NCBI RefSeq assembly: GCF_025526975.1
Contig: NW_026515672.1
Coordinates: forward strand, 620,001 to 684,000
Source: Fimicolochytrium jonesii
Taxonomy: Eukaryota
Reading direction: 5' to 3'
Length of the DNA: 64,000 nt
A model generated the notes under the pieces. It did no database searches and was not told the origin of the DNA. It saw only the letters and a program-made list of their open reading frames with translations. Made by a program: the position numbers and the translations under genes. Shown here in pieces: positions 5,546 to 62,373 of the stretch; positions within the stretch are counted from its first letter, which is position 1; every line of letters starts with the position of its first letter.

Positions 5546-8500
5546 ATGTCTCACGGAGGAAATCTCCTTGATCGGGTGGAAAGCGTTCTATACTCAATAA
5601 GCAATGGTGACCTCCAAAATGCTGCGGCTCTCGTGGACAATATCAGCCCGCGGTCGACTGCTCTACCTACACCGCCTATTAACGGCCATGACCCTCATAT
5701 GAGCGGAAAAGGCTTACAGCGTCGCCCATCGCGCACCCCATCTTTCACGTCAACTCTCGGATCCGTCCTATTCTCCCGCCGCGACAAGAGTATGGATGCA
5801 GGTGATTCCCATGGATCGATTGGCAGTAGTGACGGGATCCAGAACATTGAAAACGCCAGTGAAGACCAGGCAATTCGGATTCAGAATATGTTGAGGAGCA
5901 TTTTGGAAAAGCAGGAACGATTGACTCATCAAACGAAAGGTTCGTTGTGATCTAGTTCTCTTCGTGGCTGCGTCAAATCACCTGACTCCTCGTTACCTCA
6001 TCTTTTAGTATCAGACTCTATTTCTACAGAGGCAGCAGACTACAAGACCTTGACAAGTACAGCCGTCGAGGATGACAAGCGTGATGTAGCCTTTGAGCAG
6101 TGCATCAAGGTCGTGAACGCCATGGGTCGTGGTATTCTCAGCGAGCGTATCGACGTCTCCCTGGAAAGGCTTCCGCCCACACAAGTCGAGCTGATTCAGA
6201 GCATCAATCAAGCGGCCGATCGCATGGAAGCCTTTGTTGCGCCAACACTCAGAGTGTTGCACGACATAGGTTGTGAAGGAAGGCTTGGCCAGCAGATCGC
6301 TGTCGCCGACGCCGAAGGAAGTTGGAAGGACCTCATTGAGTCTGCAAACACCGTCAGCTTGACTCACAGCGACCGCATCAAAGAGATCGTGGAAGTGTGC
6401 AAAGCAGTCGCTTCTGGAGACCTGACGAGGGAAATTCGCGTAGACCTCAAGGGAGATGCCTTGATTCTGAAAGATACTATCAACTCCATGGTCGTTACCC
6501 TGAACTCTTTTGCTATCGAGGTAATCACTTGAGCAGGGGCAGTTCCTCGAATCTTTTCTCGTCTCCACCGTCGCCCCGACGTCCTACTGATACTTGATTA
6601 CCTTCTACTTTTCGTACATCATAGGTCACAAAAGTAGCACACTTGGTCGGAACAGAAGGCCAGCTGGGAGTACAAGCGCAAGTGCATGGCGTCAGCGGAA
6701 CCTGGGCCCTCCTCACGGACAATGTGAACCGCATGGCTTTCAACCTTACTGGTAAGGGTTTGCAAAGCGGTTCAATGATAATTGCTCGGGTTCTGATGTA
6801 TGCCCTTCGACTTCAGACCAAGTACGTGATATCGCGGATGTGACAAAAGCCATTGCCCGGGGGGATCTCAGCAAGAAGGTTCGCGTCGACGGACGGGGCG
6901 AGATCTTGGAACTCAAGGAGACCGTTAACTCGCTTGTCGACCAATTGACCACGTTTGCAGCGGAGGTATGTTTTCTTTTCATTCATTAGACCTTCAGATT
7001 GCGGTGACCGGGGTAAACTCAATCAACATACTTGTAGGTCACTCGTGTTGCCCGTGAAGTGGGTACTGAAGGAAAGCTCGGAGGACAAGCGGTTGTCAAG
7101 GATGTCGGAGGAACCTGGAAGGAGTTGACCGAGAGTGTGAACGCGATGGCACGTAACCTCACGGCTCAAGTCCGCGACATTTCTTCAGTCAGTTTCGCCA
7201 TCGCTCGTGGAGATCTCAGCAGGACGGTAACGGTAGATGTCCGCGGTGAAATGCTCGAACTCAAGGAAACGGTGAACTCGTTGGTAGATCAACTGAGAAC
7301 TTTCGCATCAGAAGTGACCAGGGTTGCTCGAGAGGTGGGGACAGAAGGAGTCCTCGGGGGACAAGCAGTCGTCAAAGATGTGGGTGGGACATGGAAGGAG
7401 TTGACCGAGTCGGTGAATGCGATGGCCGCAAACCTCACTGCTCAAGTTCGAGATATCGCTGATGTTACCAAGGCCATTGCGAAAGGAGATCTGAGCCGCA
7501 AAGTGCGAGTCGATGGACGCGGTGAAATCTTGGAACTCAAAGAAACCGTCAACTCTCTGGTTGAGCAGCTGACCACCTTCGCTTCTGAAGTTACTCGTGT
7601 CGCGCGCGAGGTCGGAACAGACGGGCGGCTTGGAGGTCAAGCTGTCGTCGAGAACGTTGCCGGTACCTGGCGTGAGCTGACAGAATCAGTCAATGCGATG
7701 GCGAGCAATTTGACTGCGCAACTCCGTGATATTGCGTCTGTCAGTTCAGCCATAGCAAGGGGTGATCTCAGCCAGACTGTGACCGTCGATGTGGAAGGCG
7801 AAATGCTAGAATTGAAGATCACCGTCAATTCGCTTGTCGACCAATTACGGACGTTCGCGCGAGAAGTCACTCGAGTCGCTAGAGAAGTCGGAACGGAAGG
7901 GAAGCTTGGCGGTCAGGCTGTTGTCAAGGACGTCGCCGGTACATGGAAGGATCTCACGGACTCGGTCAACGCCATGGCAGCGAATTTGACAGCGCAAGTG
8001 CGTGATATTGCCTCTGTCAGTACGGCCATTGCGCTGGGTGACTTGTCTCGAACCGTCACCGTCGATGTCCAGGGAGAAATGCTGCAGTTGAAAGAGACCG
8101 TCAACTCCTTAGTCGACCAACTGCGTACCTTTGCAAGGGAGGTCACGCGTGTAGCCAGGGAAGTCGGTACCGAAGGAAAGCTTGGAGGTCAAGCCGTGGT
8201 GAAGGACGTCGCCGGCACTTGGAAAGATCTCACTGACTCCGTCAACGCTATGGCCGCGAACTTGACGGCTCAAGTGAGGGATATCGCGTCCGTTAGTACC
8301 GCTATCGCCGAAGGTGACTTGTCAAAGAACGTGACTGTCGACGTTCAGGGAGAAATGTTGCAGCTCAAAGAAACGGTCAATTCGCTCGTCGATCAGCTGA
8401 GAACTTTCGCTCGTGAGGTCACTCGAGTAGCGCGAGAAGTAGGCACTGAGGGCAAATTGGGAGGCCAAGCCGTAGTGAAAGATGTCGCTGGTACCTGGAA

Positions 8501-11210
8501 AGACCTCACGGATTCCGTGAATGCCATGGCCGCGTCTCTCACCGCTCAAGTGCGCGACATCGCTTCCGTGTCGACGGCCATCGCGGCCGGAGACCTTTCG
8601 AAAACGGTCACTGTTGACGTGCAAGGGGAGATGTCGGCCTTGAAGCGCGATCTCAATCGGATGGTGGATCAGCTCAGAACTTTCGCTGCAGAGGTGACGA
8701 GAGTGGCGCGTGAAGTAGGAACTGAAGGAAAGCTCGGCGTTCAAGCCCAAGTCGACGATGTCGAAGGCACCTGGAGGACTATCATTGTCAATGTCAACAC
8801 CATGGCCAGTAACCTCACTTCTCAAGTCCGTGCCTTCGCCGACATTTCCGCCGCTGCGACCGACGGGGACTTTACCCGCTTGATCGACATCAAAGTCGAA
8901 GGCGAAATGGCTAGTTTGAAGAGCAAGATCAACCAGATGGTTTTGACTCTCCGCGAGTCCATTCAAAAGAACACCGCGGCCAGGGAGGCCGCTGAACTTG
9001 CGAACCGTGCCAAGTCTGAATTCTTGGCCAATATGAGGTAAACACCCTGATCCACTTGCCACATCGTCGAATCTACTGACCTCTTTGATCCAGTCACGAA
9101 ATTCGAACCCCTATGAACGGTATTATCGGCATGACTGCCCTCACACTCGAACAGGAACTCACGCGCCAGCAGAAGGACAACCTGATCATTGTCTCGTCGC
9201 TGGCCAACTCCCTCCTGGTAAGCAATCCAATTTTTTGAGGTTTCCATCTCTCTGCGACGTCGTGGTTGATACTTGTCCCTTTTTTTTCAGTCCATCATTG
9301 ACGACATCTTGGATATCAGCAAAATCGAGGCTGGACGCATGGTCATGGAAGAGATCCCGATGAGCTTGCGTCATGTCGTCTTCTCTCTCTTGAAAACTCT
9401 GGCCGTTCGTGCGTATCAAAAGAACATCTCACTCTTCTTCGACATCGACAACACCATCCCCGATCAGTTGGTTGGCGATCAGTTGCGATTGAAGCAAGTC
9501 ATTACCAACTTGGTTGGCGTATGTATCCCCATTGGTTTTGTTCTCTGGCCCCCAGAAGCATCACTCACCATCTCATATATGCATCGCGACGCAGAATGCT
9601 ATCAAGTTCACATCTGCGGGAGAAGTTGCGCTGCACGCCACGTTCAAGGGTATCGTCGGAGACGAGGTTGAGATCGTATTCTGTTGCTCGGACACTGGCA
9701 TCGGAATCGAGGCATCCAAGTTGGATTTGATCTTCGACACTTTCTGCCAAGCTGATGGTAAGATTCTGAAGCCAAAAACGCACCGCAGCCCGAGGTTTAT
9801 TCGTCCTCAACTAATCAGTACTTGCGCACTTTTCAGGTTCCACGAGCCGGAAGTTCGGTGGTACTGGTCTGGGATTGACTATCTCTCGTCGTCTGGTCGC
9901 TTTGATGGGAGGCGATCTGTGGGTGCAAAGTGAATTCGGAAAGGGATCCCAGTTCTATTTTAACGTCCGTTTCAAGCTGTCTAAACGTGGTGAGGACGAC
10001 CACAAGATTCAAGCCTTCAGCGGCGCCAGCCTCTTGCTGTTGGATGATGGAGAGAAGAACGATACCCCGGACATTGGGGCCGGTGAGACCTCCAATGCCC
10101 TAGTGGCCACATCGCCGGCTTCACCGGCATCTCCCTCGCAACACGTTGCCAACTCTATGGAAGCCTTGGAGGCAATGCTCCGCAACCTGAACCTGGCGTC
10201 AACGCGCGTTCACACGATCGAAGCTGCCAACCAGTGTGCTGAGGAGAAGTCCTACTCTGCAATTGTCCTCACATCTCTCGCGGCAATCAACCGAGCCCGC
10301 GACGTCACTCGTCTACGATACACCCCCGTTGTTCTCTTCGCCGACTCGGCTCGCATGCGTCTGGATATGAAGTGGTGTATCGACACCAGTATTGCCTCTT
10401 ACGCGTCCAACCCCGCTACTCAAGTGGATATTGTCAATGCTCTCATCCCCGCCTTTGAAAGTTCTGACGCCAACGGCGCTGCACGCCAGGCGAACAAGGA
10501 CAACAGTGGAGGATACTATATCCTTCTCGCGGAAGACAACTTGGTCAACCAGAAGCTCGCTCTCCGCATCCTGGAGAAGTTCGGGCACAAGGCCACCGTT
10601 GTGGAGAATGGAAAGCTTGCGGTAGAAGCATTCCAGCGTGAAGCCTTCGATCTGATCTTGATGGGTAAGTGTCTTCGATACATTCTTTACACTGCTTTTG
10701 CGCCATCATGCTGATTCACTTCCTTCTTGCAGATGTCCAAATGCCCCTGATGGGTGGATTTGAGGCGACTCAAGTCATTCGACAGATCGAGAAGAAGATG
10801 GGTCACGACTCCCCATTGAAGAGGATTCCAATTATTGGTGGGTAGTTCGAAGACTCCTCAGTCACATCGAATGAAATCGCTAACAACAGTTTGCGCGCAC
10901 AGCCGTAACCGCTCACGCCATGATCGGAGACCGCGAGAAATGTCTCAACGCCGGAATGGACGAGTACGTTACCAAACCCCTCCGCATGAACGAACTCAAC
11001 GCCATCATCAACCGCTTCCCCAAACGCACCCACCAAGCCAGCGTTACGGGCGGACGGGCTGCCGTCGCGACCGGCGGCGCAGCGAGCGCAGGACTCGGCC
11101 TGACCTCCGAAATCAATTTTGGTGGAACCGAGAGGATTTCGGTTGCTGATATGGAGATCCTTGACAACCCCAGTGGGTCGGATTCGGATCCGCGGGATCG
11201 CGGATTCTGA
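5546..11210 (+). CDS. NIK1: Group III hybrid histidine kinase (NIK1/OS-1 type): poly-HAMP, HisKA, HATPase and receiver; multi-exon
   Basis: 92-aa repeats [10 protein letters not shown]...[10 protein letters not shown]-box [22 protein letters not shown] boxes [26 protein letters not shown]; receiver [32 protein letters not shown]. Confidence 0.95.
6269..8960 (+). repeat. Coding tandem repeat: 9 units of 92 aa (276 nt) HAMP repeats
   Basis: Unit starts are 276 nt apart (e.g. 7890, 8166, 8442, 8718). Seven units lie in ORF 7059-9041 and two are upstream and intron-interrupted ([18 protein letters not shown]). Confidence 0.9.
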
Positions 11211-30211: not shown

Positions 30212-31723
30212 ATGAGCTCGGCGTTCGCAGCCAACCTGGTGACCGCCGCGCTGGCAAAAATCCTTATCCAAGCAGGGTTTGAACGGGCCCAGAATTCTTC
30301 GACCAGCATCCTTGCCGACATTTTCGTTCGATATTTGGAACTACTAGCTTGTACTGCTTCGAAGCATGCGAATCACCAGGGGCGGACGACCGGGAACTTT
30401 GAAGACGTGGCGCGAGTTTTGGACGATTTCAGCGTCGACCCAACAGCGCTGACGGAGTTCTGTCGGACCTGGGCTGTGCATATCAATCCAGAGAGTGTGG
30501 GAGGAAACCATGGCAACCCTTCTTCGCCATCACATACGGGCGCGCCAGCGAACAGTCACAGGCATGGGAAAGCTGAAGACCATGATGAGCCCGCTGCTTT
30601 TCCCATAAGTGAGTAGGCGCCGATGGACTTGACGTGGGATGGGCCTTTTCGAAAGACCTTTGACTGGTGCGTGGGGTCAAATGTTGTGCCTGTCACTATC
30701 GCTATCAGCAAACCATTCTTCGAGGGAATACGTGCTGCGGGCTCATTCCTTTCGTTCTCAATAGATATCGACGAATTATTAGAGGCATCGGCCCTCGAAG
30801 CGAAACATAAGAGCCTTCTTCCAAGGAAAGCAAGAGGTTCAGCGAGTCCATCCAAGGAGGGACATGGATCTCCGACGAGAGCACCCTTCGCCGATTCCCA
30901 TCCGCATCGGTCCGGGTCGGAACATCAAGGCGGTGGCCGACAGTTCACCAGGCGACGGAAACGGAAGGCCGCATATGGGTGCGTGGTATCATTCGACGAG
31001 ACCCATATGACCGCAGAAGACCTCGACATTGTCGATCTCCAACCTCCCGATCACCAACCAACACTACAAGTGTTTGATTCAACCCCTTCGGCGTATGTGG
31101 AGAGTCTGAAGCAGGCGTTATCGAGCGTCAGTGCAGGGGCGGCGAAAGCAAACGGAAAGATTACATCCAAAGCTTTGTTGAAGCAGATGCTCCCATTACT
31201 GCAGCATAGTAGGGTGGCGACGGCAGGTAACCACCTGTTCAGCGTGGAAAGGGGCCTTTTGGACGAGATGGTTGGGGCGGAGTTGGCGAAGCTTCCAGGA
31301 CTGCTGGAGGGACAGCGGCCTCGGATGCAGCGCGCGCCGGACAATCTGGACCAGATAGCGACGACAAAGCGTCGAAAGATCCCGCGAAATGCCGCAGAAA
31401 CCGATAAGAGCGGCGCCGAACCGAAGCTGAAGCTTAAACTGAGTCTCTCCACCGCTCGCTTGTCACCACCTCCTGCCGCCGCGGTGCCAGCAGGATTTCC
31501 CGTTTCAACATTCCAACTGCATCCAAAATCCCCAGCAAGCGGCCACCCTCCAGAAGACATCGTCAATTGTATATGTGATCAGCCGCAGGTTGATCATGGC
31601 GAGTTCATGATAGCTTGCGACAAATGCGGGGTCTGGTACCATGGGCCATGCGTTGGCGTTCCTACGGAGGCCGATCAGAGCTCGGAGAACTGGTATTGTG
31701 TCAGATGTCAACCCAGGCGGTGA
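30212..31723 (+). CDS. TAF3: TAF3-like protein: N-terminal BTP histone fold and C-terminal PHD finger, 2 exons
   Basis: ALAKILIQAGFE...ILADIFVRYLELL...ANHQGRT (BTP); intron about 30609-30763; PHD CICDQP..FMIACDKCGVWYHGPCVGV..WYCVRC. Confidence 0.75.
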
Positions 31724-32022: not shown

Positions 32023-33690
32023 CTACCACCCAGTGCTCCTACTCCAATCAATGACAATCCATCCGTTCGTCCTCGCGCTGATAGTAGCCGACGGGTCAAC
32101 GCACTGCGCCTTGGTGAACGCCATGACATAGGTCGCGGTCTCGATCGCGTTCTCGTTACCCAGCTTGAGCTCGCCTTTGCGGTTCCTGAAGATCAGGATC
32201 TCGTTTGTTTGGAAAGTTACGAGGATAACTGGTACTTCGTCCTCGAGGAGTGTGAGTTTGCGTATGTCTACGTGGCGGATGTCTAAAAGTTTGCAGTCGG
32301 AAACGAGCCCTTGTTGCTGTTGGGCTTCGAAACCGGCGGATAATCGTGCGTATGCCTAATGAAAATAAGGGTTTGTGAGATCGATCTGAATTTCGCCAGC
32401 GACCACATAAATACCAGCAGATTCCCAAAGGTTATTAATGCTCACCCTTTCACTGCACCACTCTCGCAATATGGGCGCCTCTGCTTTCAAGTAAGCTTCC
32501 AGAATTTCTGGCACGAAGTACTTTGTAGCCTCCTTCAAGAACTTTTCGGTCCTGAACGTAGGATCCACCGCCTTCAACGCGCTGACCACTCGTGCGGTTT
32601 CAGTCTCCTCGAACGCACTGCTCGAAAAGAAATCACGGATCCGCTCGACAACAGGGTTGTCGCTCTCGTCAATCCCACGTCGTACAGCAAACAGCTTTTG
32701 CGCGATGGGGCTATCCTCCTTGAACTTCCTCCATGACTCGGCAAGCTTCGACGACCGGTGAAGCTCGACGTTTTGGCCTGCTTCGGGATCTGCGGTAACG
32801 ATTCTGTTGGGATTTGGGACGCCGGGAATGCCCAATGGCATTTTGCTCTGCTGGTAGGCGAGCAGTTCTGCACGTTCTTTTTCGCGCTGCTCACGTGGTA
32901 CGTATTCGTGGAAGAATGCAGAGTCTGAAGAGTCGATCACTTCCGTTTTGACGTGCTTGATTCCCTTTCCGACGGCCTTTGCGGCTTTCGTGTCCAAAAT
33001 TGGCTCAGCAACCTGAGAACGGGTTTGTTAGCGCATACAGAACGCAGTACAGAAACGAACCATGCACTCTCGCAAGGGAATGCCTACCTTCTGTCCAACC
33101 TCAGCGACCTTCTCTCCTGCCGTGTACAGAACCTCTCCAGTTTTCTTGACTACTGGGTTCTCCACAACCTTATCGACAGTCTCCCCGACCTTTTCAAAGA
33201 CCTTCGAAGTGCCCTTCGACGTCTTGTCCATAGCATCTTTTGCCCTCTGCACAGCATCTGACTCAGCCAGTTCCTTCGTTGATGCGGAGAGCTGCTGCAC
33301 ATTCTGCTGAAACTCTCGATTTTCTGCTACTTGTCGTTTGAAGGACTTGTAGAACTCGGTGAAGAAGTTTGTGGATTCGAAGCGGGCAGAACTGCGGTGG
33401 ACGGCGATAGGAAGGAGGGTGGGGCGGGTGGAGCGGATTGCCGATCGTCTGGAGACGCTTATAGACGGTGTGACGAGACCTCTGGATATTATATGTGGGC
33501 CGGTGGACTTTTGTGATCGGCTGTTGAATGCTAACGTGGACACAGCGCTCTGCACGAAACCGCGAAACATAGAGATCAGTGAACATGAACGAAGAATGGC
33601 CGGTTCTTCCGGCGTCTGTACGCTGGGACAGCGCTCACATACCTGCGTCCGAGAAGCGGCCTTGTGTAGGGCCAGCATACTGCTAGACAT
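32023..33690 (-). CDS. TIM44: Mitochondrial import motor adaptor Tim44, 4 exons
   Basis: Presequence; FKRQVAENREFQQNV; ESDNP; ETETARV; DPTFRTEKFL; VPEILEAY; LREWCSE; SKILDIRHVD in the last exon. Confidence 0.93.
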
Positions 33691-34172: not shown

Positions 34173-34871
34173 ATGAGCTTCCAGTGCGTACGCTCAAGAT
34201 GGGCGCAACTATCCGGTCTCACAAGCGGACCACGGTCCAGCCTCATCAATAAATCTCCGCAACGCATTCTCCTCCGCCCATCCCACCGTGAACTCCAAAC
34301 CTCAGTCAACCAAATCAAACGCGGCACCGTCCTCGATTTCCGGAACAAACTCTGGATAGTAAACAACATGACCCACCACTCGCAAGGCCGAGGCGGAGCG
34401 CACTACAAACTCGACTTGCGAGAAGTGCTAGGCGGTGGGAAGCTGCTTGAGAGGTTCAACGCGGGCACAATGGTGGAGACGGTCGACCTGCAAGTGAAAC
34501 AGCTGAAATTTATGTATGCGGACCACGAGCTGCACTTACTTGACCCGGTGGACTATGAGGAGCATGTGGTGCCGATGTCGTTGTTTAGTGCTGGGGACAA
34601 GGGGCTCCCGTTCCTCAAGGACTCGATGGAGTTGAAGGTGGAGTATTACGAGAATACGCCAGTTATTATCAAAATGCCAGAACGGGCCACGTATGAGGTT
34701 GTGAACACGGCACCACCTGCATCGTCGGGTGCGAGCGACAGCAAAGGGACAGCGTTCAAGGATGCGGAGTTGGAGACTGGTGCTCGGGTGCTTGTACCCG
34801 AGTTTGTGACTATCGGCGATAAGATCGTGGTTGATTTGCTGGAGCACAAGTACGTGACAAGAGCCCGTTGA
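34173..34871 (+). CDS. efp: Bacterial-type translation elongation factor P with putative mitochondrial presequence, intronless, 232 aa
   Basis: KOW-like IKRGTVL..HHSQGRGGAHYKLDLREV; OB domain LKFMYAD..LLDPVDYE; C-domain KDAELETGARVLVPEFVTIGDKIVVD...YVTRA. The three-domain layout is EF-P, not the two-domain eIF5A. Confidence 0.93.
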   Translation: MSFQCVRSRWAQLSGLTSGPRSSLINKSPQRILLRPSHRELQTSVNQIKRGTVLDFRNKLWIVNNMTHHSQGRGGAHYKLDLREVLGGGKLLERFNAGTMVETVDLQVKQLKFMYADHELHLLDPVDYEEHVVPMSLFSAGDKGLPFLKDSMELKVEYYENTPVIIKMPERATYEVVNTAPPASSGASDSKGTAFKDAELETGARVLVPEFVTIGDKIVVDLLEHKYVTRAR

Positions 34872-51926: not shown

Positions 51927-52865
51927 GCACCGACTTGGAATGAGGGTGCCCCAAATGTTGTGGATTGGTTGAGCAGTTTCGTGAGAAAGCGGTCTCCCAG
52001 TCACCTGGCGGAAGTCACACCTGCGACTCGCGAGGCTCCGGGTGACCATCGGCGGACGGAATCGAGAAAAAAGAAGACGAGAGCAAGCTGCGCGTCTCGG
52101 AGGGACAACTGCGCGTTTCCTCCCCACGTTCTTCCCCGGGCCCCCAATGGTACTGTAACGTACGTACGTCGGTAGCATCGAGCCTCTTCCATGCCCCATA
52201 CTGAGAATCGCTTGGCCGTGCTTGGGCATGTATGAAAGTTCTGTGCTCGCCCCGTCGTCATGGCTGGTTTCCGCGGCGGCCTTCGTCAGCACATCACATA
52301 CAGTAACTTGGCAGCAAATCCGCCCATGTCCGGCGTCCGCTACGGCGCTCCTCAACTCCCATCTGATTGCCTACTATCGACGCAGGGTCGACGGTCCTCC
52401 ATAAAGCCTCCAGATGCATGCAAATGCCAGATCCAGGGCTGTCCATCCATCCACCATCCATCCACCTTTCCGTCCGTGGCTGCGATTAGATCGAATGAGA
52501 CATTAGATATGCCCCACATCTGCGACGCGCTGGTGTTCCGCCAATTGTGTCATTTCGGGTTCGTCGCAGAGTCGCGCGCATCATCAGGTCAAGTCATCTG
52601 GATCAGACAAACAAGCCGGACTTCGTATTTTCTCCAACGATTTTTTTTTTCAACTACTCTCAAAACTGCCACGAAAAAGCCGTCGACCTCCATCTACCGA
52701 CGGCCAGCATATATATATCCGGAGAGCTATCTGTTATCCGTCTACGTTCCATTGCCTTCAGAGGATTCCTGTTTCCAGTTTCTCCAGTTGAACCTCTTTT
52801 CACACCTCGCAAAATCCACTTTCCATACCACTTTCCATATCCGACACGCATAAACCAACAAAAGC

Positions 52866-54650
52866 ATGTCCTTCAAGAACACCCGACCACTCCAACGTAT
52901 TAGCCGCCCGTTGACGTTGTCGAATACTGTCCGCGCATTCCCAAGATGCATGCCGTTGACGCCACCCCTCCGTCACATCACAGGGCCTTCCGCGCCCGTT
53001 AAGGCAGCAGCAGCCGCCCACCATGCCGTACCAACCCAGCATAACACCACAACGTCTCCAACACCACCATCAGGCTCGTCCGAAGCGAAAGACCTTCGAC
53101 CGTACGCTAACCGCACCACCGCAGAGCTTATCAACTCACTTCTGGTCTTCCAGTTGTGCGGTATGCCTCGCCTGGTCGAAGCGTCACCGACCATCCTCGA
53201 ATGGACGGAGAAGATGAAATTGCATGGAATAGCCTACGCCATTATCAAACGCACGTTTTTCAAGCATTTTTGTGGAGGAGAGGATTTGAAGGAGGTTGTA
53301 CCGACATTGGAGGCGTTCAAGAAGAACCATGTGGGCGGCATCTTGGATTTAGCCATGGAGGCGGATATGGACGAGGCCAGTCTGGCAGGCCCCGCCGCGT
53401 TGGAGCAGGCGCGGAAGGTAGCAAACATGTTCAAGGAGAGTGTGGACATCGCCAGCCAGACGACGGGTAGTTTCATTGCGGTCAAGATTACGGCCTTGCT
53501 GCCGCCGTCGGTGTTGCTCGCGTGGAGCAATACGCTCAACCTGCTTCATCAGGCCTTCACGGAGGCTGATTCCAACAAAGATGGGAAAATCACTGCAAAG
53601 GAGTTTGAGAAGCTCTCTAGCACGTTCCCTTTGATCACAGGGCAGACGGCTAAGAATCTGTTTGAGCAAAGCGACCGCGACAAGGACGGGTCTATCGACT
53701 GGATTGACCTCTCCGAGACGTTCACTATTTACAATAACGAGGCTGCTCGCGCGCTCATTCGGAAGCCGTTGGAGCCTCAGACACCGGATAACCCATTGAT
53801 TACCGCCGAGCTCCTTGACACGGCCGCACCGATTCTGCCAGAGATAGACAGCGTGGCCCAACACGCGAAAGACCTCCGCGTCCGCATCATGGTGGATGCC
53901 GAACAAACCTACTTCCAACCCGCAGTCGACGACGTTGCTCTCGTGCTCTGCAAAAAGTTCAACCCATCTCTCAAACCCTCCGACGCTCAATCCTCCGAAA
54001 CACACTCATCCCCACGCGGTCCCATCGTCTACAACACCTACCAACTCTACCTTCGCGACACCTACGCCAATCTCGTCACCGACGTGGAGCGCGCCGAACG
54101 GGCCGGCTATGCGCTCGGCGTCAAAATCGTGCGAGGAGCCTACATGCACGCGGAGCGGGAGCGCGCAGAAGCTATCGGCATCCCGGATCCTATCCAGCCC
54201 GACATCAAGAGCACGCATAAGGCATATGATGCCGCCATTGATTTCCTGGTTGGGAAGGTCGCAAAAGGGATCGCTTCAACAGCATCATCGTCGGCAAGGC
54301 CCATCACGTTTGTGGTGGCTTCCCACAACGCGCACTCGATCCAGCACGCCCGCAAAGCAATGGCGGCCGCCAACGTCGCGCCGAACGAAGGCTCGATCGC
54401 GTTCGCGCAGCTGATGGGCATGCAGGATGGGACCACCTTCTCCCTCGCGGCGCAAGGGTACAAGGTGTTCAAGTACATACCGTACGGACCGGTGGATGTT
54501 ACTATACCGTACCTGCAACGACGGGCGCTGGAGAACCAAGACATTCTCAAGCCGGATGGAGGTGTCGCGCAGGATAGGGCGAGTTTGATTAGGGAGCTGA
54601 AGATTAGGTTTGGCGGTAACAGCGGAACAGTCGCTGCTGCTAGGGCTTGA
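52866..54650 (+). CDS. PUT1: Mitochondrial proline dehydrogenase with two EF-hand motifs, intronless
   Basis: TFFKHFCGGE, IAVKITAL, MVDAEQTYFQP, YNTYQLYL, KIVRGAYM, VASHN, FAQLMGM, KYIPYGPV, YLQRRALEN. Confidence 0.95.
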   Translation: MSFKNTRPLQRISRPLTLSNTVRAFPRCMPLTPPLRHITGPSAPVKAAAAAHHAVPTQHNTTTSPTPPSGSSEAKDLRPYANRTTAELINSLLVFQLCGMPRLVEASPTILEWTEKMKLHGIAYAIIKRTFFKHFCGGEDLKEVVPTLEAFKKNHVGGILDLAMEADMDEASLAGPAALEQARKVANMFKESVDIASQTTGSFIAVKITALLPPSVLLAWSNTLNLLHQAFTEADSNKDGKITAKEFEKLSSTFPLITGQTAKNLFEQSDRDKDGSIDWIDLSETFTIYNNEAARALIRKPLEPQTPDNPLITAELLDTAAPILPEIDSVAQHAKDLRVRIMVDAEQTYFQPAVDDVALVLCKKFNPSLKPSDAQSSETHSSPRGPIVYNTYQLYLRDTYANLVTDVERAERAGYALGVKIVRGAYMHAERERAEAIGIPDPIQPDIKSTHKAYDAAIDFLVGKVAKGIASTASSSARPITFVVASHNAHSIQHARKAMAAANVAPNEGSIAFAQLMGMQDGTTFSLAAQGYKVFKYIPYGPVDVTIPYLQRRALENQDILKPDGGVAQDRASLIRELKIRFGGNSGTVAAARA

Positions 54651-57785: not shown

Positions 57786-58924
57786 TGGGGAAATCTGTTT
57801 CAAACGCCTCCCCAGATTCCAAATACAGCGCTGGCAAGGACGGACACCAAATTGCACGAGGGGGCAAACCAAGAATGCGCTTCAAGCACACGAGGTGGAC
57901 GACAGGGTGCTAGCGTCGACTCCTTCTTGACGCCACTGATCGAGGGACAGCTTAGGACCAGTCCGAAATAGCAGAAACGGAAGGAACTGGAACAACCAGT
58001 TAGAAGAGTGTGGTTCTTTATTCTTTTGTTTTTCTTTTACATGGCAGTCTCAATCTACCTTCTGTATATCTGGAGCTATCGATACGGAACTCTTGGCGCT
58101 GACAACTGCTGAGAGAGCACTTCCAGAGACTTTTTGAGTCACCGTTATATTTGTCACAGGAGACCTATTTTCACACAAAGAGCGCTTGATAGGAGCCAAA
58201 GCAAGCTTGTACAAGGACTGTCGCCTGGCGGAAGCTGGAATGTTCATGGCGCCGCTGTGGTTCAGGATTGTGTCTTTCACGGAGATCGTTGGTCCGACGT
58301 TCTCACTCAGGGTCACACCGCGGACATCTGAGCTCTATGAGCAGGCCGCACCTTGACATTTACCAGTGGTGAGAAGATAGGCTTGACGCACCGGATGCAG
58401 AAAGTCCGGAGGAATGTGGTTCATGCACGGGGTGAAAATCCATTAAGACATACAGAAGATCCAGAAATTTCTATCGGAAAGAGCCGCAACTCTGTGAACT
58501 TCTACAATAGGTAAGTCAGTTGACGTGCCTGAGCGCGAACTATGCATATCGAAAGTTCAGGAAGGTACGGTGATGTTGAGCGTCCGTATATCGACCGAAA
58601 ATGTGCAAGGAGCGACTCCCCATCAATGAGGGAAGATGTGAGTCCACATCCCAGCAGGTCATGTGGTTATTCTCGGGTGTCGGGGCTTGAATTTAATGTA
58701 TCGAAGCTGGCATTGTATCCGATTGAGGCTAGTGCCTCATGGTTGAAGTACCGGCCTATTTTCTAAAAGCGTCCCAAATGCCTATTTTCTGCGTATGGGT
58801 TCTATGACCACCGGACTTCGGTTTATGTTTATCAACGACAAGCAGTCGCGATCGGGCTTGTGTTTATCTCAAACAATAAAGGTAAATGGTCTTAACATAG
58901 GCTGCATGAACCCGGGTCGGCCGG

Positions 58925-58931
58925 TATAAAA
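58925..58931 (+). promoter_or_regulatory. Candidate TATA box of the BTG/Tob gene
   Basis: TATAAAA 96 nt upstream of ATG 59021. Confidence 0.5.
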
Positions 58932-59020
58932 GCTTCGGCAAAGTTACCACCGAGCCCTCAGTTTCTCGAGCATCCATATCGTTGTGTTACATCATCCAGC
59001 CTCTCAGGACATCAAACACA

Positions 59021-59476
59021 ATGCTCGCCGAGCTAGTAGCAGCAGTAACGTTCTTGGGAACCCATCTCCCTCCTACCACAAGCCCAGAAAACCGCTCAAC
59101 CTTCCAATCGACGCTCCAACAGCACATGCAGCGCAAGTTCCTACAACATTGGGATTCCGCCCACCCCAGTAAGGGCAACGGATTCCGCGCGATCTCTTTC
59201 TCCGGCAACCGGCCCGACCCGCTAGTGATAGCCGCCGGGGCCACGATCGGCATGGCCGAGGCGGAGTTCGCGCGCATATTCCCGGAGGATCTGGTCGTTT
59301 GGGTGGATCCCGGGTCGGTGTCCTACAGGAATGGGGATCGCGGACCGGCGGTGTCCATATGGGAGAGAACGAATGCTACCACCCCAACGACGACGACCGC
59401 CGCGCCGCAAAAGAAGGGATACCCCACGAAAGCGGCCACGGGTGCTATGAGAGGACAGGCTATACTAGTATCGTGA
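59021..59476 (+). CDS. BTG/Tob (APRO) family protein, intronless
   Basis: MLAELVAAVTFL; Box A HWDSAHPSKGNGFRAI; DPLVIAA; Box B FPEDLVVWVDPGSVSYR. Confidence 0.9.
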   Translation: MLAELVAAVTFLGTHLPPTTSPENRSTFQSTLQQHMQRKFLQHWDSAHPSKGNGFRAISFSGNRPDPLVIAAGATIGMAEAEFARIFPEDLVVWVDPGSVSYRNGDRGPAVSIWERTNATTPTTTTAAPQKKGYPTKAATGAMRGQAILVS

Positions 59477-61142: not shown

Positions 61143-62373
61143 ATGCCTGCCGTCGACTGGACCATTATACTATGCATCCTGGCAGGGGCTATCCTCGCGC
61201 CTCAAGCGGGGATGAACGGAACTCTAGGGCAGCTGGGACGGAATAAGCCCTTCGCTTCGCTTTGGTCCTTTACGACAGGGATGGGTGAGTTGCACAAAGC
61301 TCAGCAGAATGGGACAGGTTTCGCGTGCTCATACTGACCACGGCTATGTATCCTCAACAGTTATCCTCATAATCTATTGGTTAGCGGAGTCGCATGGAGG
61401 GAAGGACACGGATTTTCATGCCACCTATACAGGTAAACATTAATTTTGAGTTCTGCTTGAGACTCGGCGAAACGCTGACATCCACGTCGTTTCAGATGCC
61501 CCATGGTACGCACATATGGGCGGGTTCGGGGGCGCCTATTACGTTGTCATGATAGTATACCTGGCTCCACGGCTCGGTGCAGGAACCATTATGAGTGTCT
61601 CCGTGACGTCGCAGATGGCAGCGGCTTTGATCTTCGACCACTACGGGGCACTTGGCCTCGAACGGCGGCAGGCGACGGCCGGACGGATTGTGGGTCTTAT
61701 CCTGTCGGCGATTGGAGTCGCCTTGATAATGCTTGGCAACGACTTCTTCCGACGCAAAGTGGCGCAGGATGCTACGATTACGAATACAGAGGTGGCCGAC
61801 GAGCGGGCTCTTGAAAATTCTGCGCAGGGGAAGGAGCAAATGCAGAACGAGGTTGTCGTAAATCACCCACAAGTCAGCGGACCGAGCGGACCGAGCGGAC
61901 CAAGATTCGACTGGACGGTCATCCTCGCCTGTCTCGGTGGCATCTGCCTCGCCCTACAAGGAGCCATGAACGGCAAGCTCGGCCAATATTCGGGCGGTGG
62001 CTACGCAGCGGCCTTCTCCTTTCTCGAAGGCTGGGTGATCATCGCCCTTCTCTTCGTATACGACCTCTACTTCGGCCCCCAAACGCCCAAGTTGGAACCA
62101 AGATGGAGCACGCGCGAAGTTTTCAGAACCGTTCCATGGTGGGCCTGGTTCGGCGGCGTGATGGGAGCCCTCTACGTCCTGGCCGTCACTGTTCTCATCC
62201 CAAGGTTGGGCGCCGCCACGGTGTTGGGGACGGGTGTGTGTGCGCTGGTGATCTCGGCGGTGATTTGCGATCATTTTGCGTGGTTTGGGTTGCCCCGCAC
62301 GCCTGCGAGTATCGCCCGGCTGGTGGGAGTGTGCATCTTGGTTGCCGGGGTGGTAATGATTACCATTTTATAG
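61143..62373 (+). CDS. DMT-superfamily transporter with two tandem YdcZ/DUF606-like units, 3 exons
   Basis: Duplicated motifs AGAILAPQAGMNGTLG / GGICLALQGAMNGKLG; PWYAHMGGFGG / PWWAWFGGVMG; PRLGA twice; DHYGALG / DHFAWFG. Confidence 0.85.
61876..61902 (+). repeat. 9-nt tandem repeat x3 (AGCGGACCR, encoding SGP) in the DMT linker
   Basis: agcggaccg agcggaccg agcggacca. Confidence 0.85.

What the first reader, a model, noticed from the sequence alone, without database searches (positions are those of the whole stretch)
34173..34871. Nuclear-encoded, mitochondrion-targeted EF-P with an Arg-tipped loop: a candidate mitochondrial polyproline-rescue system in a fungus
Seen: an intronless 232-aa ORF with all three EF-P domains, including the C-terminal OB domain that eIF5A lacks. 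It is preceded by about 40 Arg/Ser/Leu-rich residues with no acidic residue until E40. The functional loop is HHSQGRGGA, with Arg (CGA 34389-34391) where E. coli has the beta-lysylated Lys34 (PGKG), and Gln replacing the Pro. It is head-to-head with TIM44 across 482 nt. Established: budding-yeast and human mitochondria have no EF-P, and TACO1 has been reported to relieve polyproline stalling there; some Arg-type bacterial EF-Ps are rhamnosylated by EarP; plants encode organellar EF-Ps. Inference: this lineage keeps an ancestral endosymbiont-derived (or horizontally acquired) mitochondrial EF-P that works unmodified or with an unknown Arg modification.
Basis: partly seen in the sequence, partly recalled or inferred. 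Interest (0 to 1): 0.9.

Follow-up and report, generated by a model that had tools for sequence, protein, structure and literature searches.

The report
Mitochondrial EF-P retained in early fungi
A fungus (likely a chytrid) carries a nuclear gene for the bacterial-type translation factor EF-P, with an arginine-tipped loop and a predicted mitochondrial import signal and with close counterparts in many early-branching fungi and in plants; it likely came from the bacterial ancestor of mitochondria and likely helps mitochondrial ribosomes through proline runs, although recent reviews state that mitochondria have no EF-P.

Summary
34173-34871 (+) is an uninterrupted 232-aa ORF with all three EF-P domains, Arg73 at the loop tip and a 40-aa basic, acid-poor leader. 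It is not peculiar to this genome: named orthologues occur in four early-diverging fungal phyla and in plants, green algae and a glaucophyte; all 19 named fungal rows have Arg at the tip, all 32 alphaproteobacterial rows PGKG. Two Mortierella-like orthologue loci carry GT-AG introns, so the family is nuclear, not contamination. In a single-gene tree the fungal proteins form one clade (100/99), join the plant ones (88/95) and sit with Alphaproteobacteria (93/94); grouping eukaryotes with EarP-type plus EfpL is rejected, but a single origin is not proven. Best reading: the endosymbiont's EF-P, switched Lys to Arg and likely working unmodified. Import, expression, function, modification and loss in yeasts/animals are untested. 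Mitochondrial EF-P was predicted before in Andalucia and Plasmodium, not found in print for fungi, and 2024-2026 papers say mitochondria lack it. New variant of a known kind; interest 0.55.

The parts
34173..34871 (+). EF-P gene, 232 aa, single exon
   Evidence: GC 0.544 and GC3 0.661, inside the range of 8 neighbouring coding stretches
34173..34292 (+). predicted mitochondrial presequence, residues 1-40 (7 Arg/Lys, 1 acidic), ending in R-E|L, an R-2/R-3-type cleavage context
   Evidence: disordered in the model, pLDDT 52-65; the MPP/Icp55 reading of the motif is recalled knowledge
34302..34475 (+). domain I (KOW-like, EFP_N), residues 44-101
34383..34397 (+). loop tip Q-G-R-G-G; Arg73 (34389-34391) at the hairpin apex, canonical loop length
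   Evidence: (strands 59-71 and 75-84)
34500..34664 (+). domain II (OB, EFP), residues 110-164
34692..34862 (+). domain III (OB, Elong-fact-P_C), residues 174-230, with Y227 and R230 matching E. coli Y183 and R186
34713..34757 (+). domain III loop, residues 181-195: lacks the E. coli G-D-T E-site-codon motif, is three residues longer and has a fungal S-K-G motif (K191)
   Evidence: Lys in 18 of 19 named fungal rows, Arg in 1; motif role in E. coli from PMC11611912 passages
33088..33690 (-). TIM44 first exon, head to head with the EF-P gene (context only; likely start 33570)

Best explanation
This nuclear gene encodes a three-domain, arginine-tipped EF-P that is predicted to be imported into mitochondria, likely descends from the EF-P of the mitochondrial endosymbiont, and likely binds the E site of stalled mitoribosomes to speed proline-proline bond formation using its arginine without modification. 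Shown: domains, fold, loop, acid-poor leader, nuclear context, spread of orthologues. Inferred: import and cleavage near residue 40-41 (about 0.9), endosymbiont origin (about 0.8), polyproline rescue as the main job (about 0.75), no modification of Arg73 (about 0.65). It would act beside, not instead of, the A-site factor TACO1 where both exist.
For: Three Pfam domains; confident EF-P fold, top Foldseek hits all EF-P/EfpL ahead of IF5A. Leaders of 24 named fungal proteins hold 5 acidic residues in 585 (0.9%) against 13.9% in the cores, and 18 of the 23 with a leader have Arg two residues before the domain junction. Orthologues named in four fungal phyla, plants, green algae, Cyanophora. GT-AG introns in 2 of 2 fungal-type metagenome loci. 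Best bacterial matches to the eukaryotic profile are alphaproteobacterial: 75 of 80 GTDB loci related to the top one have alphaproteobacterial titles. Tree: fungi 100/99, fungi + Archaeplastida 88/95, these + Alphaproteobacteria 93/94; same grouping in the 108-row trees. Eukaryotes + EfpL + EarP-type as one clade rejected, p 0.0018. Arg in 19 of 19 named fungal rows, 9 of 10 other eukaryote rows; Y183/R186 equivalents kept. Unmodified Arg-type EF-Ps work in E. coli, and Thermus EF-P (loop GRGG, the top structural hit) showed no modification (PMC12931083). Andalucia's predicted mitoproteome lists both EF-P and Taco1.
Against: No localisation, expression or activity data. The protein scores under NCBIfam's EF-P cut-offs (142.5 of 161; 134 of 185.8). 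One short gene (187 columns), thin bacterial sampling, no cyanobacterial/plastid rows, one EfpL row: fungi + EfpL is not rejected (p 0.31), separate origins of fungal and plant copies are not rejected (p 0.155), and the eukaryote + alpha branch is unstarred. The G-D-T E-site-codon motif is lost. Four named fungal models have leaders of only 7-9 aa and one has none. Three of six unmodified Arg-type EF-Ps tested in E. coli were hardly functional, so an Arg tip does not guarantee activity without a modifier.
Confidence: 0.62

Rival explanations
1. It is a mitochondrial EF-P, but Arg73 must be modified by an unknown eukaryotic enzyme (or by an EarP-like rhamnosyltransferase) to work.
For: The loop has canonical length, without EfpL's two-residue extension that is thought to replace a modification. 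About half of bacterial genomes have an EF-P of unknown modification type. Genomic data cannot tell unmodified from unknown-modified EF-P.
Against: The loop (QGRGG) differs from EarP substrates (SGRNS, SGRNA); fungi + EarP-type p 0.046, eukaryotes + EfpL + EarP-type p 0.0018. Thermus-type GRGG EF-P appears unmodified. EarP could not be sought: no genome is held.
Confidence: 0.14
2. It is mitochondrial and endosymbiont-derived but its main job has shifted: first peptide bond, general elongation or mitoribosome maturation, with TACO1 covering polyproline stalls.
For: The domain III loop that reads the E-site codon in E. coli is remodelled, with a conserved fungal Lys. TACO1 resolves polyproline stalls in human mitochondria by an A-site route; plants have TACO1 too (listing and passages of PMC13252137).
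Against: Loop tip, G33/G35 equivalents and Y183/R186 equivalents are conserved. Bacteria keep EF-P and YebC together with overlapping roles. Alphaproteobacteria also lack the Asp (GQT in 32 of 32), so the motif change is not by itself a sign of a new role.
Confidence: 0.12
3. The gene entered the fungal ancestor by horizontal transfer from a bacterium other than the endosymbiont (another alphaproteobacterium or an EfpL-like donor), separately from the plant gene, and was then targeted to mitochondria.
For: Separate origins not rejected; fungi + EfpL not rejected; long fungal stem (0.55); an unnamed Arg-tipped bacterial-type row (P0114) is sister to alpha + eukaryotes.
Against: All 37 eukaryote-type rows formed one clade in the quick IQ-TREE (SH-aLRT 90) and 18 of 18 in the careful tree (88/95); fungi and Archaeplastida share the Arg tip that 32 of 32 alphaproteobacteria lack; EF-P is also predicted in Andalucia mitochondria. 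FastTree left fungi and plants unresolved within the alpha clade.
Confidence: 0.09
4. Artefact or non-mitochondrial: a bacterial contig fragment mis-assembled into fungal DNA, or a cytosolic protein with a meaningless leader.
For: This copy has no intron; read support could not be checked.
Against: Composition matches neighbours; flanking genes have spliceosomal introns; closest relatives at 52-59% identity are chytrid proteins; orthologues have introns; leader character is conserved across phyla.
Confidence: 0.03

Closest known systems
Alphaproteobacterial EF-P (PGKG, Lys tip)
   Same: Three domains, same loop length, shared E-R pair (E. coli positions 54-55) and aromatic-Lys at 151-152; nearest bacterial group in trees
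   Different: Arg for Lys, Gln for Pro, N-terminal leader, longer domain III loop with S-K-G; nuclear gene
Plant and algal Arg-tipped EF-P with N-terminal leader (QGRGG in land plants)
   Same: Same loop tip, leader, nearest named clade
   Different: 27-35% identity; different domain III loop; I found no paper testing their location or function
Predicted mitochondrial EF-P of Andalucia godoyi (PMC7050145) and Plasmodium PF3D7_0913400 (PMC8550323)
   Same: Nuclear-encoded, predicted mitochondrial EF-P
   Different: Protists, prediction only; the Plasmodium protein lacks domain III; the Andalucia loop has, by eye, an Arg one position further on; neither was in my trees
Unmodified Arg-type EF-P of Thermus/Deinococcus (PMC12931083)
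   Same: Canonical-length loop; Thermus has GRGG and is the top structural hit; works-like model
   Different: Bacterial; not in my trees, so kinship untested
EfpL (YeiP)
   Same: Arg tip, unmodified
   Different: EfpL has a two-residue longer loop and a Pro three residues before the Arg; both absent here
TACO1/YebC
   Same: Relieves polyproline stalls on mitoribosomes
   Different: Unrelated fold, binds the A-site side

Membership tests
EF-P (bacterial type) | KOW + OB + C-terminal OB domains | tested here: met
   all three over Pfam cut-offs; fold
EF-P (bacterial type) | NCBIfam curated score cut-off (PRK00529, TIGR00038) | tested here: not met
   142.5 of 161 and 134 of 185.8 bits; best-matching families none the less; models are built for prokaryotes
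EF-P (bacterial type) | basic residue at the apex of the domain I loop; Y183/R186 equivalents | tested here: met
   R73, Y227, R230
EF-P (bacterial type) | relieves ribosome stalling at polyproline | not testable with these tools
   needs assay
Mitochondrial matrix protein | basic, acid-poor N-terminal leader with Arg before the cleavage site | tested here: met
   (composition and conserved junction; no TargetP/MitoFates available)
Mitochondrial matrix protein | import into mitochondria | not testable with these tools
   needs localisation or proteomics
Endosymbiont-derived gene | eukaryotic clade grouping with Alphaproteobacteria | tested here: inconclusive
   favoured (93/94 and 88/95) but unstarred; alternatives not rejected
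EfpL (YeiP) | loop longer by two residues; Pro three residues before the Arg | tested here: not met
   NCBIfam 100 of 216 bits
EarP-type (rhamnosylated) EF-P | belongs to the EarP-type clade | tested here: not met
   p 0.046, borderline; p 0.0018
EarP-type (rhamnosylated) EF-P | earP in the same genome | not testable with these tools
   no genome held
PGKGP unmodified EF-P | Pro-Gly-Lys-Gly-Pro loop | tested here: not met
   loop is QGRGG
eIF5A/aIF5A | two domains only, Lys tip | tested here: not met
   third domain present, Arg tip

The most novel reading that the evidence does not exclude
The last eukaryotic common ancestor had a mitochondrial EF-P that swapped the endosymbiont's Lys for Arg and so shed its modification enzymes; early-diverging fungi and Archaeplastida still use it, yeasts, other Dikarya and animals lost it and lean on TACO1, and its retention is tied to a mitochondrially encoded, bacterial-type tRNA-Pro (chytrids keep tRNA-Pro among as few as five mitochondrial tRNAs). 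'Mitochondria lack EF-P' would then be a quirk of the model organisms.
Probability: 0.35. Interest if true: 0.75.

Novelty: new variant of a known kind. Interest (0 to 1): 0.55.

Why it matters
Papers of 2024-2026 state flatly that mitochondria have no EF-P (PMC11381339, PMC12856214, PMC12996406) and explain TACO1 as the single retained solution. An Arg-tipped EF-P with a presequence across four fungal phyla and plants says this is a secondary loss in the lineages studied, and gives tractable systems for asking why a mitoribosome needs an E-site factor, an A-site factor or both, and how EF-P can work without a modification. Against a higher score: the sequences are public and some are already labelled EF-P, mitochondrial EF-P was predicted twice before, the likely function is the textbook one, and nothing is special to this window.

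Tried and rejected
No whole genome is held, so EarP, EpmA/B, TACO1, copy number and the mitochondrial proteome could not be checked. No RNA holder was listed: no evidence either way. A metagenome scan with a chytrid alignment gave 129 pattern matches and 0 relatives, so TIM44 synteny in chytrids is untested; the Mortierella-like locus L127 shares only EF-P with the window, so head-to-head position is given no weight. The careful tree on 108 rows did not finish (searches show the quick tree); it was rerun on 51 of the 108 rows, leaving out the three unnamed or long eukaryote-type rows with uncertain placement among others. The test of all Arg-tipped rows as one clade (p 0.0014) was set aside as unspecific, since bacterial rows alone could cause the rejection. 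Five AU tests were run without correction, and rows were named after a free tree had been seen. The Acanthamoeba mitoproteome paper (PMC13632651) has no hit for EF-P terms in text or 4 supplements, but none for 'elongation factor' either: uninformative. PMC4773603 mentions EF-P only in references. The fungal-profile search missed many of its own input sequences, so it cannot show absence from Dikarya or animals. Three look-ups of earlier scan findings returned nothing. Rejected: contamination, eIF5A, EfpL membership, PGKGP type, a lineage-specific recent transfer.

Full report
Observation. The window is eukaryotic nuclear DNA of even composition (GC 0.51-0.58) with ordinary fungal genes: TIM44, an RCL1-like cyclase, NDK, ATP synthase beta, MRP-L28, C1-THF synthase, proline dehydrogenase, TFIIB and others (gene names beyond the Pfam labels are my reading). 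TIM44 has a 75-nt GT-AG intron with a CTAAC branch site. The finding, 34173-34871 (+), is a 232-aa uninterrupted ORF with an in-frame stop 19 codons upstream. It matches the three EF-P Pfam domains above cut-off. Its best NCBIfam families are EF-P, though below the prokaryotic cut-offs. AlphaFold2 with a 38-row alignment gives mean pLDDT 88, a disordered first 40 residues and a hairpin (strands 59-71, 75-84) with Arg73 at its apex; Foldseek ranks EF-P and EfpL structures first, Thermus EF-P on top, IF5A below. GC and GC3 (0.544, 0.661) lie within the range of 8 neighbouring coding stretches (0.527-0.577, 0.564-0.704). The TIM44 gap is 482 nt to the first ATG but about 602 nt to the more presequence-like ATG at 33570.

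Spread. The closest proteins are from chytrids: Thoreauomyces and Gaertneriomyces (59%), Spizellomyces and Entophlyctis (58%, 56%), Geranomyces; the window is therefore likely a Spizellomycetales-type chytrid. In an exhaustive search of 50%-cluster representatives, 20 of the 24 best hits have Arg at the tip and 4 are fragments lacking the loop; the first bacterial-looking PGKG protein is rank 25. I looked up 30 of the 150 representatives, chosen for a leader or an Arg tip; 24 carried a name or label: Chytridiomycota, Allomyces (already annotated 'translation elongation factor P'), Basidiobolus, Syncephalis, Dispira, Coemansia, Rhizopus, Mortierella, Bifiguratus, Acaulospora, land plants, Bryopsis, Chlorokybus, Cyanophora and one label I read as a MAST stramenopile. 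None was from Dikarya or animals, but that sample cannot show absence. The ESM Atlas's three best clusters are eukaryotic EF-Ps, mostly Streptophyta. A metagenome scan with the Mortierella protein gave 21 loci, 2 of them close (64% and 76%). Both have GT-AG introns, and in both the M-G-R-G loop sits on a 27-nt exon. The family is thus genuinely nuclear.

Targeting. Across 24 named fungal proteins the stretch before domain I holds 5 Asp/Glu in 585 residues (0.9%) against 13.9% in the cores, and 17% Arg/Lys; relatives are not independent, so this is descriptive. 18 of the 23 with a leader have Arg two residues before the junction, followed mostly by Y, L, V, I or F (R-E|L here); this resembles the MPP R-2/R-3 motif (recalled). 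Four leaders are only 7-9 aa and one model has none; for two of these a sister record has a longer leader, which suggests truncated gene models. No dedicated predictor was available, and import is not shown.

Origin. The bacterial-type hits to a profile of 38 eukaryotic rows look alike. The top one is labelled as a cyanobacterium by NCBI, but its GTDB relatives (up to 92% identical) are alphaproteobacterial by title in 75 of 80 loci. EF-P was matched in 99 of 101 sampled genomes of that class (this tally alone includes the unpublished genome G043). In the careful tree (51 rows, 187 columns, LG+C20 PMSF) the 12 fungal rows form a clade (100/99) with chytrids together (98/93); fungi join 6 Archaeplastida rows (88/95) and these join 14 alphaproteobacteria (93/94); one unnamed Arg-tipped row is sister to all of these (99/88). 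The 108-row quick tree put all 37 eukaryote-type rows in one clade inside Alphaproteobacteria (SH-aLRT 90); FastTree kept them with Alphaproteobacteria (96) but did not unite fungi and plants. AU tests: eukaryotes + EfpL + EarP-type rejected (p 0.0018); fungi + EarP-type borderline (p 0.046); fungi + the single long EfpL row not rejected (p 0.31); fungi + alpha without plants not rejected (p 0.155). Sampling was rich in alphaproteobacteria by my choice, thin elsewhere, and had no cyanobacterial or plastid rows. Endosymbiont origin is favoured, not proven.

Anatomy. Against E. coli numbering: Arg at position 34 in 19 of 19 named fungal rows and 9 of 10 other eukaryote rows, Lys in 32 of 32 alphaproteobacteria; Pro32 is replaced in all fungal rows; Gly33 is kept in 19 of 19. 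The loop has the alphaproteobacterial length, without EfpL's two extra residues or its Pro three residues upstream. E-R at 54-55 is shared by fungi (18 and 19 of 19) and alphaproteobacteria (29 and 32 of 32) but is less common in the 39 other bacterial-type rows (Arg in 15). Y183 and R186 are kept (18 and 17 of 19). The G-D-T motif that contacts the E-site codon in E. coli is gone; fungi have a Lys at 147 (18 of 19, Arg in 1) and chytrids a longer loop.

Mechanism. [quoted passage not shown] Arg-type EF-Ps without any known modifier are common (206 of 741 Arg-type in PMC12931083); 3 of 6 tested worked unmodified in E. coli and 3 hardly worked; Thermus EF-P showed no modification in its structure. 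I therefore put 'unmodified' at about 0.65. A Lys-to-Arg switch would have freed the organelle from the endosymbiont's modification enzymes; many alphaproteobacteria use EpmAB. This step is inference. A further lead: the chytrid Synchytrium keeps tRNA-Pro among five mitochondrial tRNAs and Spizellomyces keeps eight (that Pro is among them is recalled), which fits retention of a factor that reads a bacterial-type tRNA-Pro; whether Synchytrium has this EF-P was not checked.

What is in print. PMC11381339, PMC12856214 and PMC12996406 (passages) say mitochondria lack EF-P. PMC7050145 (passages and one supplement row; one supplement was a picture and unread) lists EF-P and Taco1 in Andalucia's predicted mitoproteome. 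PMC8550323 (passages) predicts a two-domain mitochondrial EF-P in Plasmodium and calls the family not previously seen in mitochondria. Also read as passages: PMC13602936, PMC11611912, PMC11388002, PMC13252137, PMC6131824, PMC4394434; PMC12931083 as passages and section 6; PMC4773603 and PMC13632651 gave nothing. Searches for 'mitochondrial EF-P' (0 papers), EF-P + chytrid + mitochondri (1 listed, on ABCFs, not read), an Arabidopsis gene id recalled from memory (0), elongation factor P + early-diverging fungi + mitochondri (0), + Mucor + mitochondri (1 listed, unrelated by title) and listings showed no paper on a fungal mitochondrial EF-P. The library lacks most subscription papers, and supplements of proteome papers that I did not open may list such proteins.

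Verdict. Real gene; a member of the EF-P family by domains, fold and key residues; not EfpL, EarP-type, PGKGP-type or eIF5A. It represents an Arg-tipped, presequence-bearing eukaryotic subfamily that is public in databases and predicted in two protists but overlooked in the translation literature. New variant of a known kind, interest 0.55.

Noticed in passing
L127:3822-3848 and L126:461-487: In two Mortierella-like loci the whole Arg-tipped loop is encoded by a 27-nt exon between two GT-AG introns; skipping it would keep the frame and delete the functional tip.
   Followed up: partly
window 30212-31723 (+): Histone-fold Bromo_TP domain followed by a C-terminal PHD finger: a TAF3-like layout as in animals; yeast Taf3 lacks the PHD (recalled).
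   Followed up: no
window 58910-59476 (+): BTG/Tob family domain (E 4e-25), a family best known from animals (recalled).
   Followed up: no
window 61450-62373 (+): Two DMT_YdcZ domains (E 7e-53), a bacterial-type membrane exporter family, in one long open frame.
   Followed up: no
window 52854-54650 (+): Proline dehydrogenase with an EF-hand pair inside it and a presequence-like start.
   Followed up: no
window 5951-10714 (+): Hybrid histidine kinase with many HAMP repeats, group III-like (recalled name).
   Followed up: no
window 1771-54650: At least six genes for likely mitochondrial proteins lie in the window (ABC transporter like ATM1, TIM44, EF-P, ATP synthase beta, MRP-L28, proline dehydrogenase); not tested against chance.
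   Followed up: no
proteins P0066, P0120: Two leader-bearing eukaryote-type EF-Ps keep a Lys tip (AGKGG, PGKGG) yet fall in the eukaryotic clade of the quick tree: the Arg switch is not universal.
   Followed up: partly
protein P0213: Named as a cyanobacterial EF-P by NCBI but 90-92% identical to alphaproteobacterial genes: probably a contaminated record.
   Followed up: partly
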